Sequence record: NC_000866.4
Strand: one strand, 5' to 3'
DNA: 64,000 nt
From: Escherichia phage T4
The stretch's first letter is position 1, and each line of letters starts with the position of its first letter. A program made the position numbers and the translations under genes. This document shows, in pieces, positions 11,323 through 18,440 of this stretch. The notes under the pieces were generated by a model, which was not told the DNA's origin, made no database searches, and worked only from the letters and a program-made list of their open reading frames with translations.

Positions 11323-12606
11323 ATGGCTAAAATCAACGAACTTCTGCGCGAATCAACCACAACGAATAGCAACTCAATCGGTCGCCCAAATCTCGTTGCT
11401 TTGACTCGCGCTACCACTAAATTAATATATTCTGACATTGTAGCAACGCAAAGAACTAATCAACCTGTTGCTGCTTTTTATGGTATCAAATACCTTAACC
11501 CAGACAACGAATTTACATTTAAAACTGGTGCTACTTACGCTGGCGAAGCTGGATATGTAGACCGAGAACAAATCACAGAATTAACAGAAGAGTCTAAATT
11601 AACTCTCAATAAAGGCGATTTATTCAAATATAATAATATCGTTTATAAAGTATTAGAAGATACTCCATTTGCTACTATCGAAGAAAGTGATTTAGAATTA
11701 GCTCTTCAGATTGCAATCGTTCTTTTAAAGGTTCGTCTATTTTCTGACGCAGCGTCAACAAGCAAATTTGAAAGCTCTGATAGTGAAATTGCGGATGCTA
11801 GATTCCAGATTAATAAATGGCAAACTGCAGTTAAATCTCGTAAACTTAAAACTGGCATCACAGTTGAATTAGCGCAAGATTTAGAAGCAAATGGATTCGA
11901 TGCTCCTAATTTCTTGGAAGATTTGCTTGCAACTGAAATGGCAGATGAAATCAATAAAGACATTCTGCAGTCTTTGATTACAGTGTCAAAACGCTATAAA
12001 GTTACAGGAATTACTGATAGTGGATTCATCGATTTGAGTTATGCATCTGCTCCTGAAGCTGGTCGTTCATTATACCGAATGGTATGTGAAATGGTTTCGC
12101 ATATCCAAAAAGAATCAACTTATACAGCAACGTTCTGTGTTGCTTCAGCTCGTGCCGCTGCGATTCTTGCTGCATCAGGCTGGTTAAAACATAAACCAGA
12201 AGATGACAAATATCTTTCACAAAATGCCTACGGGTTCTTAGCTAATGGTTTACCGCTTTATTGCGATACTAACAGCCCATTAGATTATGTAATCGTTGGC
12301 GTAGTAGAAAATATCGGTGAAAAAGAAATTGTTGGATCAATTTTCTATGCTCCGTATACAGAAGGTCTCGACTTAGATGACCCTGAACATGTAGGTGCAT
12401 TTAAAGTTGTTGTTGATCCAGAAAGCTTACAACCATCTATCGGTTTATTAGTTAGATATGCTTTATCAGCAAATCCTTATACTGTAGCAAAAGATGAAAA
12501 AGAAGCAAGAATAATTGACGGTGGAGACATGGATAAAATGGCAGGTCGTTCAGATTTGTCTGTTTTATTAGGTGTTAAGCTACCAAAAATTATCATTGAT
12601 GAATAA
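11323..12606 (+). CDS. 24: Capsid vertex protein
   Basis: 427-aa ORF; TATAAATA at 11288-11295; T4 gp24 length and position. Confidence 0.95.
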   Translation: MAKINELLRESTTTNSNSIGRPNLVALTRATTKLIYSDIVATQRTNQPVAAFYGIKYLNPDNEFTFKTGATYAGEAGYVDREQITELTEESKLTLNKGDLFKYNNIVYKVLEDTPFATIEESDLELALQIAIVLLKVRLFSDAASTSKFESSDSEIADARFQINKWQTAVKSRKLKTGITVELAQDLEANGFDAPNFLEDLLATEMADEINKDILQSLITVSKRYKVTGITDSGFIDLSYASAPEAGRSLYRMVCEMVSHIQKESTYTATFCVASARAAAILAASGWLKHKPEDDKYLSQNAYGFLANGLPLYCDTNSPLDYVIVGVVENIGEKEIVGSIFYAPYTEGLDLDDPEHVGAFKVVVDPESLQPSIGLLVRYALSANPYTVAKDEKEARIIDGGDMDKMAGRSDLSVLLGVKLPKIIIDE

Positions 12607-12612
12607 AACAAA

Positions 12613-12636
12613 GGGACCTTTCGGTCCCTTTTTATT
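12613..12636. terminator. Hairpin terminator between gene 24 and rnlB (convergent)
   Basis: GGGACC-UUUC-GGUCCC followed by TTTTTATTT on plus strand; sits between two convergent genes. Confidence 0.75.
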
Positions 12637-13640
12637 TAACTTACCAACTCAATCCAAGCTGGACGAAGTACATCTTGTACCATTTTAACTAATTCCTTTT
12701 TAATCAAAGAAGGATTATCTGCTTGAGTTAGAGTAATACCTTCACGAGAAGTTTCTTCCAAAATATCTTGAACAGTTAGCCCCATCACCTTTCCAAAATC
12801 CTTTGGACCAATTTCGCCAATTTTAGAAATAACGTTATTTACGCGGTTCAGTGTAACGTAACAAGCTAAAATTCCCACCAATTTGTTATCAGCTTCTGAT
12901 AGCTCAACTTTAGCTTTAATAGGCTTATCAGACTTTTTCTTTTCACTAAATTTAGAGTTCTTGCATTTAATCGCTACACGATTTCCATTACGAAGCCAAG
13001 AAGGATAACAAGGTTTCAATACATATCCTTCAGCAGTAAATACTTCGCCTTTTGCTTCGGCATTCCAAACGCATTTATTTGCATCAACTAATCCAGCATG
13101 GTCTACTGTAAAATTATAATCTTGGACGACAGAATCTAAATCATTTGGCAATTTAATAAGCTCTTCAAATTTACCGCGACCTAAAAGTGGAGCCATTTTA
13201 AATTTAAATGTATTACAGAATGATTCCATCATATAATCATCTACATAAGTCACATCACCGCTTTCTGTAGTAACAATAATGTCAAATACATAAAAATCTT
13301 TATCACAATAATCAACATTCTTCTGAATGCCAGGTCCAGCGAATTCGCCAAAGACTTGATAAGATACAACCGCTGAGGTTTCCATAATATCTTGTACAGC
13401 TTTAATGGAATCAGCATAATTCTTCAAAATAATTTCATACCCAAAGAAATCTTCAGCAGGAAGAATCGGTCCAGTGCGTTTAGCGCAAGTCACTTTATCA
13501 CGCTCAATAATCAATGAGAAATTTGTGCCGTGAATCTTTTCACGAGCTACCCACTCCCCACCAGTCAATCCCAAGCTATAAAGTTTTTCAATAAATTTAG
13601 AGTTGTAATGATTTTCAAGACTGCTATACTTTTTAAACAT
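12636..13640 (-). CDS. rnlB: RNA ligase 2
   Basis: 334-aa ORF with nucleotidyltransferase motif I (EKIHGTN); T4 Rnl2 length. Confidence 0.92.
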
Positions 13641-13649
13641 AATTAATCC

Positions 13650-13928
13650 TCAAAATGTAATTTCTAACCAATCACCATCACGCTGATCACTATTGACTTT
13701 AAAGCTGAATCCTTCTTTTCTCAGCCAATCACCAATTTCTTCTGTAATCAATTTATCACGAGCAATACAATAATAATTAAAATGTGTTTTACCTTGTTCA
13801 GCTGCTTTATTAGCAAGTTCTGAAAAATCTTTAATAAAACACTCTAGCTTAAACTGTTTACTTTTTAATGCTTTTTCGCGTAATTGATTAGCAAAAGATT
13901 CATTTTCATAAAGATCATACTGTTCCAT
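13650..13928 (-). CDS. 24.2: Hypothetical protein
   Basis: 92-aa ORF with ATG start between rnlB and hoc; name assigned by T4 synteny only. Confidence 0.7.
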   Translation of the reverse strand: MEQYDLYENESFANQLREKALKSKQFKLECFIKDFSELANKAAEQGKTHFNYYCIARDKLITEEIGDWLRKEGFSFKVNSDQRDGDWLEITF

Positions 13929-14097
13929 TTTTCACCTTTTTATTGATATGTCTTTTTCTATAGACAACTTTTTCTCGAGCCCATAATACAGCCACTTCTT
14001 TTGCCTGTAAGTTTAATTCACGAGCAATTTCAATGAATGACTTTCCAGACTCATGAAGAGTAAACACCACAACCTCAGTTCTCATAATCAATCTCAT
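13915..14097 (-). CDS. 24.3: Hypothetical protein
   Basis: 60-aa ORF with ATG start overlapping the downstream ORF; name by synteny only. Confidence 0.6.
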   Translation of the reverse strand: MRLIMRTEVVVFTLHESGKSFIEIARELNLQAKEVAVLWAREKVVYRKRHINKKVKNGTV

Positions 14098-14154: not shown

Positions 14155-14180
14155 AAAATGAAGAAAGGGGCCGAAGCCCC
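14155..14180 (-). terminator. Terminator after hoc
   Basis: Minus strand GGGGC-UUCG-GCCCC then UUUCUUCAUUUU. Confidence 0.65.
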
Positions 14181-14186
14181 TTATGA

Positions 14187-15317
14187 TTATGGATAGGTAT
14201 AGATGATACCAGTTTCTAAAGCAGTTTTATGAATGATGTATCCATTACGCGATTCTTGGACATCAACTTCTGGATAGTCTTTCATCATCTTCTGGAGAGT
14301 GTAACGATGCAGGTAATATTTACTATCTGGGTCGTCAGTTTTCCAATCTTTACCTTCTTCGGTCATTTTTTGGATTTCATCCATAACCCACCAACCGCAC
14401 CAGATGTAAGCTGAGCTACGGTGTGGAAGAGGATGAACATAAGGTAATTCACCTTCTGGTTCTGGAGCAACTTTAGCCGTGACTGTTACATTACCAGTTT
14501 TGGTAACGGTTACAGGGTTATAATCTGCAGCAGTAACAGTTGCAGTAACTTCAATAGTTTGACTTCCAACAGATGAGGTATCGACAGTATATACGTTAGT
14601 TGACCCTTCTACAGGAGAAGAATCTTTCTTCCATGAGTAAGTAATTTGTGCTTCTTCTGGAGCACCCGTAACATTAGCCGTAAATGTAGCCGAAGCATCT
14701 TGCTGAACATTAATAGAAGGAGGAGTCAATGTAACCTGTGGATTCATTGTCTTCTTATTAACCGTTAATGATACTTCATTAGAAGTAACGCTTAGTGCAT
14801 CATAATCTGTCGCGGTTACTTGGGCTACGCATTTAATTCTTTTTACTCCACTTGTAGTTGGAGTATAGCTAAATGTAGAGTTAGTTTCTCCACCAACTTG
14901 TGAATCATCTACATACCACTGATACGTAGCAGATGCTCCATCAGGTTGAGAAGCTAAGGCAGCAGTAAATTGAACTGGGGTTCCAATCACTCCAGCCGCA
15001 GGACTAGCAGGAGTTACGGCTAAGGTAGTCGTCTGTGTCTTATTTTTAACTGTGATAGTTGTTGTCGCTTCAGCCGTTTCCGGGCCTCCTTCAGAAAGTG
15101 TATTTGTTGCAACTACTTTAATAGTCTTTTGACCGGCAGGTCCTTTTAGTACATAACTAAAAGTTGCTTCAGCTCCATCTTGTGGAACATTATCTACGCT
15201 CCAAGCATATGTAATAGTTCCGCCTCCAGTTTGACCACTGGGTGTAGCAGTAAACTGCTTAGTTTCATCAATAACCCCTGTAGGTGTTTTAGGAGTTATA
15301 TCAACTGTAAAAGTCAT
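14187..15317 (-). CDS. hoc: Head outer capsid protein with three tandem Ig-like repeats
   Basis: 376-aa ORF; repeated blocks TITYAWSVD / ATYQWYVDD / QITYSWKKD; T4 Hoc length. Confidence 0.94.
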   Translation of the reverse strand: MTFTVDITPKTPTGVIDETKQFTATPSGQTGGGTITYAWSVDNVPQDGAEATFSYVLKGPAGQKTIKVVATNTLSEGGPETAEATTTITVKNKTQTTTLAVTPASPAAGVIGTPVQFTAALASQPDGASATYQWYVDDSQVGGETNSTFSYTPTTSGVKRIKCVAQVTATDYDALSVTSNEVSLTVNKKTMNPQVTLTPPSINVQQDASATFTANVTGAPEEAQITYSWKKDSSPVEGSTNVYTVDTSSVGSQTIEVTATVTAADYNPVTVTKTGNVTVTAKVAPEPEGELPYVHPLPHRSSAYIWCGWWVMDEIQKMTEEGKDWKTDDPDSKYYLHRYTLQKMMKDYPEVDVQESRNGYIIHKTALETGIIYTYP

Positions 15318-15326
15318 AAGTTATCC

Positions 15327-16007
15327 TTATTTTAATGTTACGAAAGAAGAGTTGCGTGTTTCACGAATTAAAACTGATCCATCGCGATTAATGTAATAAA
15401 TTAAGCTAAATAAAGTTTGGTGTGCTGACGCATGTTCAAAACTAGTTGGGTGAGATTTCCAATCAGGAGTTTCAGCAATCCATTGATAAATCCACCAAGG
15501 AACAGTACAGAATCCTAGATTTTTTCCAATCAGTTGAAGATTCGGACTAAAGTTTTCCGGAAGAGTAAATACAGACGGCTTTTCAGATTCAATAATCTCA
15601 GCTACAGCCTGTTCGAATTTTTCTTCAACAAAAGGAGTATCTTCAATCAAAACATCGGTATTTTCAGGAATTTTATCCGTTTCTACTACTTCAATTTTAA
15701 TGTCAGATTTAATCGGAGAATCAATCAGAAGTGCTGCTTCTGGATTGACTTCTTCATCGTCATATTTTAATCCCTCTGCGGCATCAGCAGCATCAATTAA
15801 GTCTTTAATAGATAACCCATCAGTCTCTGGCATAGGTTCACTAGCGAGCTTCTGGAGGGCTTCTTCAATATCAACAACGATATTATCAAAAGATTTATTC
15901 TTTTTGACCTTTATACCAAACTGTTCAGCATATTCAGCTAATTTAGCTTTAGCTTCTTTGTTATCATCAAGAGCCTTCAGCTCTGCAATATAATCTTTAT
16001 CTATCAT
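15327..16007 (-). CDS. inh: Inhibitor of prohead protease
   Basis: 226-aa acidic ORF adjacent to hoc; T4 inh position and length. Confidence 0.85.
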   Translation of the reverse strand: MIDKDYIAELKALDDNKEAKAKLAEYAEQFGIKVKKNKSFDNIVVDIEEALQKLASEPMPETDGLSIKDLIDAADAAEGLKYDDEEVNPEAALLIDSPIKSDIKIEVVETDKIPENTDVLIEDTPFVEEKFEQAVAEIIESEKPSVFTLPENFSPNLQLIGKNLGFCTVPWWIYQWIAETPDWKSHPTSFEHASAHQTLFSLIYYINRDGSVLIRETRNSSFVTLK

Positions 16008-16056: not shown

Positions 16057-16674
16057 ATGTACCACTTTGTATATGAAACAACAAATCTAATAAATGGTAA
16101 AAAGTATATAGGAAAGCACTCTACTGATGACTTGAATGATGGTTACCTTGGTTCCGGTAAGGCAATTCAGCAGGCTATAAAGAAATATGGTGAAAACAAT
16201 TTCTCTAGAACAATACTAAAAGAGTTTAAAACTTCCGAAGAAGCGTACATGTATGAAGAAGAAATTATAACTCCTGAACTAATAAAAAGCAAAAATTATT
16301 ATAATATGAAACCTGGTGGAATTGGTGGAATTGTTATGACTACAGATGTTATAGCAAAGATGAAAGAATCTTCCGCTAAAAGATTTGAAAACTCACCGGG
16401 CACGGTATTAGGTAAAACTTGTTATACTAATGGAACTAAAAATATTTTTATTAAACCTGGAGAACTTGTTCCAGAAGGATTTGTAAAAGGGATGGTTCAT
16501 CCTAATAGAAAGTCCAGAAAAGGATGTAAAGTCAAACCGACTACCACAGGAACTTTTTGGGTCAATAATGGCGCAATAAATAAATTAATACAACCAGACG
16601 GTATTATTCCCGACGGATTTATTAAAGGTCGTCTCATGAAAAGAGATTCTAAAGGCAAATTTAGTAAGGCATAA
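16057..16674 (+). CDS. segE: GIY-YIG homing endonuclease
   Basis: GIY-YIG motif (FVYETTNLINGKKYIG); 205 aa; between inh and uvsW as T4 segE. Confidence 0.88.
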   Translation: MYHFVYETTNLINGKKYIGKHSTDDLNDGYLGSGKAIQQAIKKYGENNFSRTILKEFKTSEEAYMYEEEIITPELIKSKNYYNMKPGGIGGIVMTTDVIAKMKESSAKRFENSPGTVLGKTCYTNGTKNIFIKPGELVPEGFVKGMVHPNRKSRKGCKVKPTTTGTFWVNNGAINKLIQPDGIIPDGFIKGRLMKRDSKGKFSKA

Positions 16675-16676
16675 TT

Positions 16677-18440
16677 ATGGATATTAAAGTACATTTTCAC
16701 GACTTCAGTCATGTACGCATCGATTGTGAAGAGAGCACGTTCCACGAATTAAGAGATTTCTTTTCGTTTGAGGCCGATGGATATAGATTTAATCCTCGCT
16801 TCAGATATGGCAACTGGGATGGACGAATCCGTCTTTTAGATTATAATCGTCTTCTTCCATTCGGCTTAGTCGGGCAAATTAAAAAATTCTGTGATAATTT
16901 TGGCTATAAAGCCTGGATTGACCCACAAATTAACGAAAAAGAAGAATTATCAAGAAAAGATTTTGATGAATGGCTTTCTAAATTAGAAATCTATTCAGGA
17001 AATAAAAGAATTGAACCGCACTGGTATCAAAAAGATGCAGTGTTCGAAGGATTAGTTAATCGTCGTAGAATTCTTAATCTTCCAACATCTGCAGGTAAAT
17101 CTTTAATTCAAGCTTTGCTTGCGCGATATTATTTGGAAAATTATGAAGGTAAAATTCTTATCATTGTTCCAACAACTGCTCTGACAACTCAGATGGCTGA
17201 TGACTTCGTCGACTATCGTTTATTCAGCCATGCAATGATAAAGAAAATTGGTGGCGGAGCATCAAAAGATGATAAATATAAAAATGATGCACCAGTCGTT
17301 GTTGGTACATGGCAAACTGTAGTAAAACAACCGAAAGAATGGTTCTCACAGTTTGGAATGATGATGAATGATGAATGCCATCTTGCTACAGGAAAAAGTA
17401 TTTCATCTATCATATCAGGTTTAAATAACTGCATGTTCAAATTCGGTTTGTCTGGTTCATTACGTGATGGCAAAGCCAATATCATGCAGTATGTTGGAAT
17501 GTTTGGTGAAATATTTAAACCAGTAACGACTTCTAAATTAATGGAAGATGGACAAGTAACTGAGCTAAAAATTAATAGTATTTTTCTTCGCTATCCCGAT
17601 GAGTTCACTACTAAATTAAAGGGAAAAACTTACCAAGAAGAAATAAAAATTATTACTGGGCTTAGTAAAAGAAATAAATGGATCGCTAAATTAGCTATTA
17701 AGCTTGCGCAAAAAGATGAAAACGCTTTTGTCATGTTTAAACATGTATCGCATGGTAAAGCTATTTTCGATTTAATTAAAAATGAATACGATAAAGTTTA
17801 TTACGTATCAGGGGAAGTTGATACCGAAACCCGCAATATAATGAAAACCTTAGCTGAAAATGGTAAAGGAATAATTATAGTAGCTAGTTATGGTGTATTT
17901 TCTACTGGTATTTCAGTTAAAAATCTGCATCACGTTGTTTTAGCGCACGGTGTTAAATCAAAAATCATTGTATTACAAACAATCGGTCGTGTATTACGTA
18001 AGCATGGTTCTAAGACAATAGCAACAGTCTGGGACCTCATAGATAGCGCAGGCGTCAAGCCAAAATCTGCTAATACGAAAAAGAAATATGTTCATTTGAA
18101 CTATCTTTTAAAACACGGCATTGATCGTATTCAGCGCTACGCAGATGAAAAATTTAATTACGTAATGAAAACAGTTAATTTAATAAGCTTCGGCCCTTTG
18201 GAGAAAAAGATGTTACTAGAATTTAAACAATTTCTTTATGAAGCTTCTATTGATGAATTTATGGGTAAAATTGCCTCTTGTCAAACATTAGAAGGTTTAG
18301 AAGAACTTGAAGCTTATTATAAGAAAAGAGTCAAAGAAACTGAATTAAAAGATACTGATGACATCTCTGTGAGAGATGCTTTGGCAGGAAAAAGAGCTGA
18401 ATTAGAAGATTCAGACGATGAAGTAGAAGAAAGCTTTTAA
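16677..18440 (+). CDS. uvsW: SF2 DNA/RNA helicase
   Basis: 587-aa ORF with Walker A (PTSAGKS) and DECH box; matches full-length T4 UvsW. Confidence 0.94.
   Translation: MDIKVHFHDFSHVRIDCEESTFHELRDFFSFEADGYRFNPRFRYGNWDGRIRLLDYNRLLPFGLVGQIKKFCDNFGYKAWIDPQINEKEELSRKDFDEWLSKLEIYSGNKRIEPHWYQKDAVFEGLVNRRRILNLPTSAGKSLIQALLARYYLENYEGKILIIVPTTALTTQMADDFVDYRLFSHAMIKKIGGGASKDDKYKNDAPVVVGTWQTVVKQPKEWFSQFGMMMNDECHLATGKSISSIISGLNNCMFKFGLSGSLRDGKANIMQYVGMFGEIFKPVTTSKLMEDGQVTELKINSIFLRYPDEFTTKLKGKTYQEEIKIITGLSKRNKWIAKLAIKLAQKDENAFVMFKHVSHGKAIFDLIKNEYDKVYYVSGEVDTETRNIMKTLAENGKGIIIVASYGVFSTGISVKNLHHVVLAHGVKSKIIVLQTIGRVLRKHGSKTIATVWDLIDSAGVKPKSANTKKKYVHLNYLLKHGIDRIQRYADEKFNYVMKTVNLISFGPLEKKMLLEFKQFLYEASIDEFMGKIASCQTLEGLEELEAYYKKRVKETELKDTDDISVRDALAGKRAELEDSDDEVEESF

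What the first reader, a model, noticed from the sequence alone, without database searches (positions are those of the whole stretch)
14187..15317. Three tandem Ig-like repeats in the outer capsid protein Hoc
Roughly 100-aa modules recur three times with a conserved block (TITYAWSVD, ATYQWYVDD, QITYSWKKD), followed by a distinct C-terminal capsid-binding segment. Display of Ig-like domains on the capsid is implicated in adherence to mucus and surfaces.
Basis: partly seen in the sequence, partly recalled or inferred. Interest (0 to 1): 0.25.

Follow-up and report, generated by a model that had tools for sequence, protein, structure and literature searches.

The report
Phage T4 Hoc: three Ig-like repeats
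This is the well-studied hoc gene of bacteriophage T4: its protein is three tandem immunoglobulin-like domains plus a C-terminal domain that anchors it to the capsid, so the finding is correct but already known.

Summary
The observation and the interpretation both hold, and nothing here is new.

- **Identity:** window 14187-15317 is one 376-aa ORF on the minus strand. Its DNA is 100% identical to hoc in ten phage records (seven T4 records, RB55, RB59, and the 1988 entry X14869). Its protein is 100% identical to the PDB Hoc chains 5vf3, 8t1x, 8t9r, 9mkb and 9mof.
- **Repeats:** the three quoted motifs sit at aa 34-42, 130-138 and 224-232, with the TY.W core spaced exactly 95 aa apart. Modules 1-96, 97-189 and 190-285 align pairwise with Smith-Waterman scores of 107-112, against 32-36 for composition-preserving shuffles (z about 12, 0 of 500). 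The C-terminal 91 aa matches none of them (z below 1).
- **Fold:** Pfam I-set and PKD models pass their gathering thresholds. An AlphaFold2 model (pLDDT 88) shows three all-beta sandwiches and an alpha/beta C-domain. Foldseek returns NCAM Ig1-3, RB49 Hoc (3SHS), titin and Dscam, and the solved T4 Hoc C-domain bound to gp23* (8t1x).
- **Conservation:** across 1370 phage records the C-domain is the conserved core. The Ig modules diverge and vary in number.
- **Function:** published work covers capsid anchoring, glycan and mucus adherence, bacterial-surface binding and pH-dependent dispersal.

Interest is low.

The parts
14187..15317 (-). hoc coding sequence (376 codons plus TAA stop at 14187-14189)
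   Evidence: ORF list. DNA 100% identical to T4 hoc. Protein 100% identical to PDB Hoc chains.
15030..15317 (-). Ig-like domain 1 (aa 1-96); contains TITYAWSVD at 15192-15218, which is beta-strand C with the core Trp39
   Evidence: Self-alignment z about 12. AF2 strands E4-8 through E80-91, pLDDT mostly above 90 (one 10-residue block each at 89 and 86).
14751..15029 (-). Ig-like domain 2 (aa 97-189); contains ATYQWYVDD at 14904-14930 (strand E129-136, Trp134)
   Evidence: Pfam PKD 24.0 bits against cutoff 23.5 on aa 101-158..
14463..14750 (-). Ig-like domain 3 (aa 190-285); contains QITYSWKKD at 14622-14648 (strand E224-231, Trp229). D246, the site of the published D246N mucus-adaptation mutation, lies here.
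   Evidence: Pfam I-set 24.1 bits against cutoff 23.7 on aa 193-283.. PMC9271167.
14190..14462 (-). C-terminal alpha/beta capsid-binding domain (aa 286-376; the literature puts the boundary at 281), with Y293, H295, Y304, W306, W309, W310 and E355-S-R-N-G359
   Evidence: No similarity to the Ig modules. Foldseek match to 8t1x_X, TM 0.82. It is the most conserved part of the protein across relatives. Contact residues are listed in PMC10385173.
15324..15328 (-). Shine-Dalgarno-like AAGGA 6 nt upstream of the ATG, overlapping the inh stop codon. Only 9 nt separate inh and hoc.
   Evidence: Sequence read directly. Its function is inferred.
14155..14182 (-). Intrinsic-terminator-like hairpin AAGGGGC-TTCG-GCCCCTT followed by a T-rich tail, starting 5 nt after the hoc stop codon
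   Evidence: Terminator scan and sequence. Its function is inferred.

Best explanation
The region is the hoc gene of bacteriophage T4, which encodes the highly immunogenic outer capsid protein. The protein is a fibre of three tandem Ig-like beta-sandwich domains of about 95 aa each, which arose by internal duplication. A 91-96 aa alpha/beta C-terminal domain follows them. After capsid expansion, the C-domain docks as a monomer at the centre of each gp23* hexamer through a cluster of aromatic residues (Y293, H295, Y304, W306, W309, W310) and the ESRNG loop. The three acidic Ig-like domains project about 180 A outward. There they make weak, multivalent contacts with glycans on mucins, mammalian cells and bacterial surfaces, and they keep virions dispersed. 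Shown here: the identity, the repeat, the folds, and the contrast between a conserved anchor and variable display domains. Taken from the literature: the binding site on the capsid, 155 copies per capsid, glycan and mucus adherence, and pH-dependent clustering.
For: Identity: DNA is 100% identical over 1131 nt to hoc in ten phage records, seven of them T4. The protein is identical to PDB Hoc chains 5vf3_Z, 8t1x, 8t9r, 9mkb and 9mof, E = 2.5e-247. The gene order is that of T4.

Repeat: pairwise z is about 12 for the three modules and below 1 against the C-domain. There are 17 invariant columns. A profile of the three modules finds the RB49 Hoc crystal structure 3SHS at E = 9e-5.

Fold: Pfam I-set and PKD pass their gathering thresholds. 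The AF2 model has mean pLDDT 88.1, with three all-beta domains mostly above 90 and an alpha/beta C-domain. Foldseek top hits are NCAM Ig1-2-3 (3e-12), RB49 Hoc 3SHS (4e-11), Sidekick, Dscam and titin, plus 8t1x_X for the C-domain at TM 0.82 and rmsd 2.9 over 96 residues.

Anchor versus display: the most distant of 1370 tblastn hits keep only aa 291-367. The C-domain is 59-99% identical to relatives while the Ig modules are 0-96%. Most invariant columns lie in aa 287-373. Repeat-profile counts are 3 modules in T4 and 4 in BCH953P4 and O157 typing phage 3. Phage Maestro (924 aa) gives 4 significant profile matches and large unmatched stretches. The profile finds none in the short PM2 protein (266 aa). 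All of these end in the same C-domain.

Literature: PMC10385173 covers architecture, gp23* contacts, pI and dispersal. PMC9271167 covers Hoc-dependent mucus adherence, fucosylated-glycan binding and D246N in Ig domain 3. PMC3012670 covers non-essentiality, the monomer at the hexamer centre and 155 copies. The computed pI is 4.74.
Against: Nothing argues against the identity or the architecture. Three caveats concern details. First, Pfam support is marginal: scores sit less than 1 bit above the cutoffs, the models differ between domains (PKD for domain 2, I-set for domain 3), and domain 1 gets no Pfam call. Its assignment rests on internal homology and the AF2 model. Second, the domains lack the canonical Ig B-F disulfide, with one Cys in aa 1-285, so they are Ig-like rather than classical Ig. 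Third, the AF2 confidence for the C-domain is only about 50-83. The biological role is not settled in the literature: mucus adherence, bacterial-surface binding and pH-dependent dispersal have all been proposed.
Confidence: 0.97

Rival explanations
1. The architecture is the same, but the main selected function of the Ig-like fibre is not mucus adherence. Instead it is attachment to the bacterial surface and/or electrostatic, pH-dependent dispersal or clustering of virions (the 'environment sensor' model).
For: PMC10385173 reports that Hoc-minus particles lose titre through aggregation, that clustering depends on pH, and that Ig domains 2 and 3 bind E. coli surfaces. The computed pI is 4.74 for the whole protein and 4.56 for the Ig part. 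Hoc homologues occur in Acinetobacter, Aeromonas, Stenotrophomonas and Pectobacterium phages, whose habitats are not mucosal.
Against: PMC9271167 shows Hoc-dependent glycan binding, and a domain-3 mutation that changes affinity for fucosylated glycans and retention in a mucus layer. The two roles are not mutually exclusive.
Confidence: 0.3
2. The repeats are better classed as PKD, FN3 or bacterial Ig (Big) type beta-sandwiches than as immunoglobulin I-set domains. This is a difference of classification, not of mechanism.
For: For domain 2 the best Pfam hits are PKD (24.0 bits, above cutoff), PKD_4 and PKD_3. Several GenBank records annotate the gene as 'PKD domain protein'. PDB sequence hits include collagenase ColH PKD domains and a bacterial Ig domain. 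There is no intradomain disulfide.
Against: Domain 3 passes the I-set cutoff. The top Foldseek hits are I-set strings such as NCAM, titin, Dscam and Sidekick. The strand-C Trp is conserved in all three modules.
Confidence: 0.15
3. The apparent repeat is a compositional artefact of a Thr/Val/Ser-rich protein and not true internal homology.
For: T, S and V make up 39% of aa 1-285.
Against: Composition-preserving shuffles never approach the observed scores (z about 12, 0 of 500). The invariant F, TY.W, D and G columns are in register at a 95-aa period. The motif maps to the same beta-strand in each predicted domain.
Confidence: 0.01

Closest known systems
Bacteriophage T4 Hoc (highly immunogenic outer capsid protein; PDB 5vf3, 8t1x, 8t9r, 9mkb, 9mof)
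   Same: Identical in sequence (376 of 376 aa, 1131 of 1131 nt), in genome context and in domain architecture.
   Different: Nothing differs.
Phage RB49 Hoc, N-terminal three Ig-like domains (PDB 3SHS)
   Same: A linear string of three Ig-like domains. It is found by the repeat profile at E = 9e-5 and by Foldseek at E = 4e-11.
   Different: Sequence identity is only about 17-22% (PMC10385173). Single-sequence phmmer at E below 0.01 did not find it.
Phage T5 decoration protein pb10 (PDB 5lxk) and other capsid-displayed Ig-like decoration proteins
   Same: An Ig-like domain is displayed from the centre of capsid hexamers. There is a weak sequence match to Hoc aa 200-278, E = 0.007.
   Different: pb10 has one Ig-like domain and an unrelated N-terminal capsid-binding domain (PMC5292684 abstract).
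Eukaryotic I-set adhesion molecules (NCAM Ig1-3, titin, Dscam)
   Same: The fold and the beads-on-a-string arrangement are shared (Foldseek E 1e-12 to 1e-10; Pfam I-set).
   Different: Sequence identity is 12-18%. Hoc has no B-F disulfide. The context and the anchoring domain are different.

Membership tests
T4 Hoc / Hoc-like head decoration proteins | Sequence homology to T4 Hoc over the full length | tested here: met
   The protein is 100% identical to PDB Hoc chains, and the DNA is 100% identical to T4 hoc.
T4 Hoc / Hoc-like head decoration proteins | [quoted passage not shown] | tested here: met
   All these residues are present in the translation. H295, W309, W310, E355, S356, R357 and G359 are invariant in the 7-phage alignment. 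The fold matches 8t1x_X at TM 0.82. The residue list comes from PMC10385173.
T4 Hoc / Hoc-like head decoration proteins | N-terminal string of Ig-like domains (three in T4) | tested here: met
   Three repeat-profile domains cover aa 1-96, 95-190 and 191-285. AF2 gives three beta-sandwiches. Foldseek matches multi-Ig strings.
T4 Hoc / Hoc-like head decoration proteins | Conserved genome position next to inh (prohead protease inhibitor) in the head-gene region | tested here: met
   The window ORFs match the T4 annotation rnlB / 24.2 / hoc / inh / segE / uvsW. The inh-hoc adjacency is also seen in phiA85, UTK0003, Meroveus and PSTCR6.
T4 Hoc / Hoc-like head decoration proteins | Binds as a monomer at the centre of gp23* hexamers of expanded capsids (155 copies) and is dispensable | not testable with these tools
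   Literature only: PMC3012670, PMC10385173, and PDB 8t1x, which has the identical sequence.
Immunoglobulin I-set domain (Pfam PF07679) | Score at or above the Pfam gathering threshold | tested here: met
   24.1 bits against a cutoff of 23.7, on aa 193-283 only (domain 3). The margin is small.
Immunoglobulin I-set domain (Pfam PF07679) | Conserved core Trp on strand C and a beta-sandwich of about 7-9 strands | tested here: met
   W39, W134 and W229 are invariant and lie in predicted strands E34-41, E129-136 and E224-231.
Immunoglobulin I-set domain (Pfam PF07679) | Canonical B-F intradomain disulfide | tested here: not met
   There is only one Cys (C163) in aa 1-285. The domains are therefore 'Ig-like', as the literature also calls them.
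PKD domain (Pfam PF00801) | Score at or above the Pfam gathering threshold | tested here: met
   24.0 bits against a cutoff of 23.5, on aa 101-158 (domain 2), covering profile positions 4-58 of 80. The match is partial and marginal.
Bacteriophage adherence to mucus (BAM) via capsid Ig-like domains | Hoc-dependent binding of virions to mucin glycans | not testable with these tools
   Literature: PMC9271167 reports lower glycan-array signal for hoc-deletion phage, binding of recombinant Hoc to fucosylated glycans, and altered affinity in D246N. The original Barr et al. 2013 paper is not held in the library.

The most novel reading that the evidence does not exclude
The only mildly new angle concerns module number. 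A close T4 relative, Tequatrovirus BCH953P4, carries a 472-aa Hoc with two tandem copies of Ig domain 2 that are 85% identical in protein and 79% in DNA. The downstream copy is 96% identical in protein to T4 domain 2. Hoc fibre length would then still be changing among tequatroviruses by whole-module duplication or recombination. This offers a natural series (3 versus 4 modules on the same anchor) for testing whether fibre length tunes adherence. Variation in module number among Hoc proteins in general is already published (PMC10385173).
Probability: 0.5. Interest if true: 0.12.

Novelty: already known. Interest (0 to 1): 0.04.

Why it matters
Hoc matters as the model capsid-display protein. 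It underlies the 'bacteriophage adherence to mucus' model and T4 vaccine and antigen-display platforms. None of that is new here. The gene was sequenced in the 1980s (X14869), its Ig-like repeats have been known for decades, a homologue's three domains were solved in 2011 (3SHS), and the C-domain-capsid interface was solved in 2023 (8t1x). The value of this check is that the first-stage call can be filed as a correct annotation and needs no further follow-up.

Tried and rejected
- **DNA-level repeat search** (one search failed on a strand argument). It found only short remnants at 71-89% identity. One pair is in register at 282 nt. The repeat is too old to show as DNA.
- **Single-sequence phmmer against the PDB**. 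It did not recover RB49 Hoc 3SHS. A profile of the three modules did.
- **Repeat profile on Pectobacterium phage PM2 Hoc** (266 aa) and its upstream 'YYY domain' ORF. There were no hits, because the modules there are too divergent for a three-sequence profile. The C-domain is still recognised at 1e-37.
- **Late promoter search.** No exact TATAAATA lies on the minus strand between hoc and inh, or just upstream of inh. Only AATAAATA (7 of 8) lies upstream of inh. I make no promoter claim. Co-transcription with inh is inferred from the 9-nt gap.
- **Barr et al. 2013 (PMC3696810)** could not be read. The mucus claim rests on PMC9271167 and PMC10385173, which cite it.
- **Compositional artefact** was considered and rejected.

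Full report
**Observation.**
Window 14187-15317 is exactly one ORF of 376 codons on the minus strand.
- TITYAWSVD at aa 34-42 (window 15192-15218)
- ATYQWYVDD at aa 130-138 (14904-14930)
- QITYSWKKD at aa 224-232 (14622-14648)

The TY.W core recurs at a period of exactly 95 aa. I cut the protein into aa 1-96, 97-189, 190-285 and 286-376 and compared the pieces by Smith-Waterman (BLOSUM62). The three N-terminal modules score 107-112 against each other. Shuffles that preserve composition average 32-36 (sd about 6), so z is about 12 and 0 of 500 shuffles reach the observed score. The C-terminal piece scores at the shuffle mean against all three modules (z from -0.3 to 0.7). A three-way alignment gives 37% and 31% identity to module 1 and 17 invariant columns, including F22, T36, Y37, W39, D42, G48 and G62. 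At the DNA level only weak in-register remnants survive, such as 35 nt at 71% identity spaced 282 nt apart. The repeat is real, ancient and visible only in protein. The Thr/Val/Ser-rich composition (39% of aa 1-285) does not explain it, because the shuffles keep that composition.

**Identity.**
The DNA is 100% identical over all 1131 nt to hoc in ten phage records: seven T4 records, RB55, RB59 and the original entry X14869. In all, 674 phage records match at megablast level. The protein is identical (E = 2.5e-247) to the PDB chains deposited as 'highly immunogenic outer capsid protein', namely 5vf3, 8t1x, 8t9r, 9mkb and 9mof. The flanking ORFs are those of T4: gp24 (11323-12606, +), rnlB (12636-13640, -), 24.2 (13650-13928, -), 24.3 (13915-14097, -), hoc, inh (15327-16007, -), segE (16057-16674, +) and uvsW (16677-18440, +). 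An AAGGA Shine-Dalgarno-like sequence overlaps the inh stop codon, 6 nt before the hoc ATG. A GC-rich hairpin with a UUCG loop and a T-rich tail (14182-14155, minus strand) follows the stop codon. No exact late-promoter TATAAATA lies on the minus strand just upstream of hoc or inh. Co-transcription with inh is an inference from the 9-nt gap.

**Fold.**
- Pfam gives I-set on aa 193-283 (24.1 bits, cutoff 23.7) and PKD on aa 101-158 (24.0 bits, cutoff 23.5). Ig_3, Ig_2, PKD_4 and V-set fall below their cutoffs.
- I built an alignment of T4 Hoc with six diverse homologues taken from phage genomes and ran AlphaFold2 on it. Mean pLDDT is 88.1.
- The model has three all-beta domains, mostly above pLDDT 90. 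Strand positions repeat from domain to domain.
- A linker follows, then an alpha/beta C-domain (E304-307, H309-320, H335-347, E352-355, H364-369) at lower confidence.
- Foldseek against the PDB returns NCAM Ig1-2-3 (3e-12), RB49 Hoc 3SHS (4e-11), Sidekick, Dscam and titin Ig strings. For the C-domain it returns 8t1x_X, 'T4 Hoc C-terminal domain bound to the vertex-proximal gp23* capsomer', at TM 0.82 and rmsd 2.9 A over 96 residues.
- The domains have no B-F disulfide, with one Cys in aa 1-285. 'Ig-like' is therefore the right term. The I-set versus PKD label is a matter of classification within one superfold.

**Anchor versus display.**
A tblastn of the protein against 50,697 phage records finds 1370 records. 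The weakest hits (RB43, KP27, Nando, FL15) retain only aa 291-367. In eight homologues the C-domain is always the best conserved part (59-99% identity), while the Ig modules range from 0% to 96%. Most invariant columns of the 7-phage alignment lie in aa 287-373. They include H295, W306, W309, W310 and E355-S-R-x-G359. These are among the residues that PMC10385173 reports at the gp23* interface or as highly conserved.

Module number also varies on the same anchor:

| Phage | Hoc length | Repeat-profile modules |
|---|---|---|
| T4, phiA85, UTK0003, Meroveus, PSTCR6, Serratia 4S | 361-407 aa | 3 |
| O157 typing phage 3 | 471 aa | 4 |
| Tequatrovirus BCH953P4 | 472 aa | 4 |
| Acinetobacter phage Maestro | 924 aa | 4 significant matches, with large unmatched stretches |
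| Pectobacterium phage PM2 | 266 aa | none detected (modules too divergent for this profile) |

In BCH953P4 the extra module is a tandem copy of domain 2, with 82 of 96 aa and 227 of 288 nt identical between the copies. This shows how such arrays grow. [quoted passage not shown]

**Mechanism.**
These points are shown here: the identity, three homologous Ig-like modules, a distinct conserved C-domain whose predicted fold matches the solved capsid-bound domain, and an acidic pI (4.74).

These points come from the literature on the identical protein:
- Hoc is dispensable. It binds after capsid expansion as a monomer at the centre of each gp23* hexamer, at 155 copies per capsid, and adds little stability (PMC3012670).
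- The C-domain contacts all six gp23* subunits through an aromatic-rich interface of about 1200 A2. The fibre is about 180 A long (PMC10385173).
- hoc-deletion phage give weaker glycan-array signals. Recombinant Hoc binds fucosylated glycans. D246N in Ig domain 3 alters that affinity and the retention of phage in a mucus layer (PMC9271167).
- Hoc also binds E. coli surfaces and prevents or modulates virion aggregation in a pH-dependent way (PMC10385173).

Which of these roles is the selected one remains open. I rate mucus or glycan adherence and dispersal or bacterial binding as non-exclusive.

**Verdict.**
The only refinements are the strand and the module size of about 95 aa. The feature is a textbook, structurally characterised protein, so its novelty is 'already known' and its interest is low.

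**Noticed in passing.**
- The uvsW ORF in the window is 587 aa, because of small indels at 18182-18186 relative to MT984581, which has a 502-aa uvsW.
- MT984581 carries a 33-nt insert bounded by CTCGAG in gene 24.3 that the window lacks.
- RB43 hoc is annotated as two fragments.
- TATAAATA is over-represented in the window, with 19 copies against 8.4 expected.

Noticed in passing
window 16677-18440 (+), difference at 18182-18186: The uvsW ORF is 587 aa in the window. T4 record MT984581 annotates 502 aa. The window reads ...AATTTAATAAGCTTCGGCCC..., and MT984581 reads ...AATTTATAAGGGCTTCGGCCC..., which gives a TAA stop followed by a GGGC-TTCG-GCCC hairpin. The window therefore carries the fused UvsW+UvsW.1 reading frame. 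From memory, unverified: a fused 587-aa UvsW was reported around 2007 as a correction of the reference sequence.
   Followed up: partly
window 13973/13974, inside ORF 13915-14097 (-), gene 24.3; L001 (MT984581): MT984581 has 33 extra nt here (CTCGAGTTTCAAATTTATTCTTAGCAGTCATAG), so that two CTCGAG (XhoI) sites flank the extra segment. The extra segment is in frame and adds 11 codons to 24.3. It looks like an engineered or strain-specific insertion in that lab stock. The window has the 60-aa form.
   Followed up: partly
L002 19-1437 (Tequatrovirus BCH953P4, OZ035784.1): Hoc here is 472 aa with four Ig-like modules. Modules 2 and 3 are tandem copies of T4 domain 2 (82 of 96 aa and 227 of 288 nt identical to each other). 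The downstream copy is 92 of 96 aa identical to T4 domain 2. This is a whole-module duplication or recombination event in a close T4 relative.
   Followed up: partly
L011 2477-2980 (phage RB43, NC_007023.1): hoc is annotated as two small fragments (186 nt and 144 nt, both 'Hoc-like head decoration'). Only the C-domain core (T4 aa 294-361) is detectable. It may be a degraded or frameshifted hoc, or an annotation problem.
   Followed up: no
L010 536-2295 (Pectobacterium phage PM2, KF835987.1): A short 266-aa Hoc (divergent modules plus the conserved C-domain) lies directly after a 314-aa 'YYY domain containing protein' ORF, between inh and hoc. It may be a split or second decoration protein. The T4 repeat profile does not hit either N-terminal part.
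   Followed up: no
whole window, e.g. 2500, 4551, 4610, 5171, 7133, 8082, 8803, 11288 (+): The T4 late-promoter motif TATAAATA occurs 19 times against 8.4 expected (0 of 100 shuffles reach 19). It is concentrated on the + strand upstream of the head and tail genes in the first 12 kb. None lies on the minus strand directly upstream of hoc or inh.
   Followed up: no
window 14229-14414 (+) and 15180-15335 (+): Two short ORFs (61 aa and 51 aa) lie antisense to hoc. They are most likely chance ORFs, and no evidence was sought.
   Followed up: no
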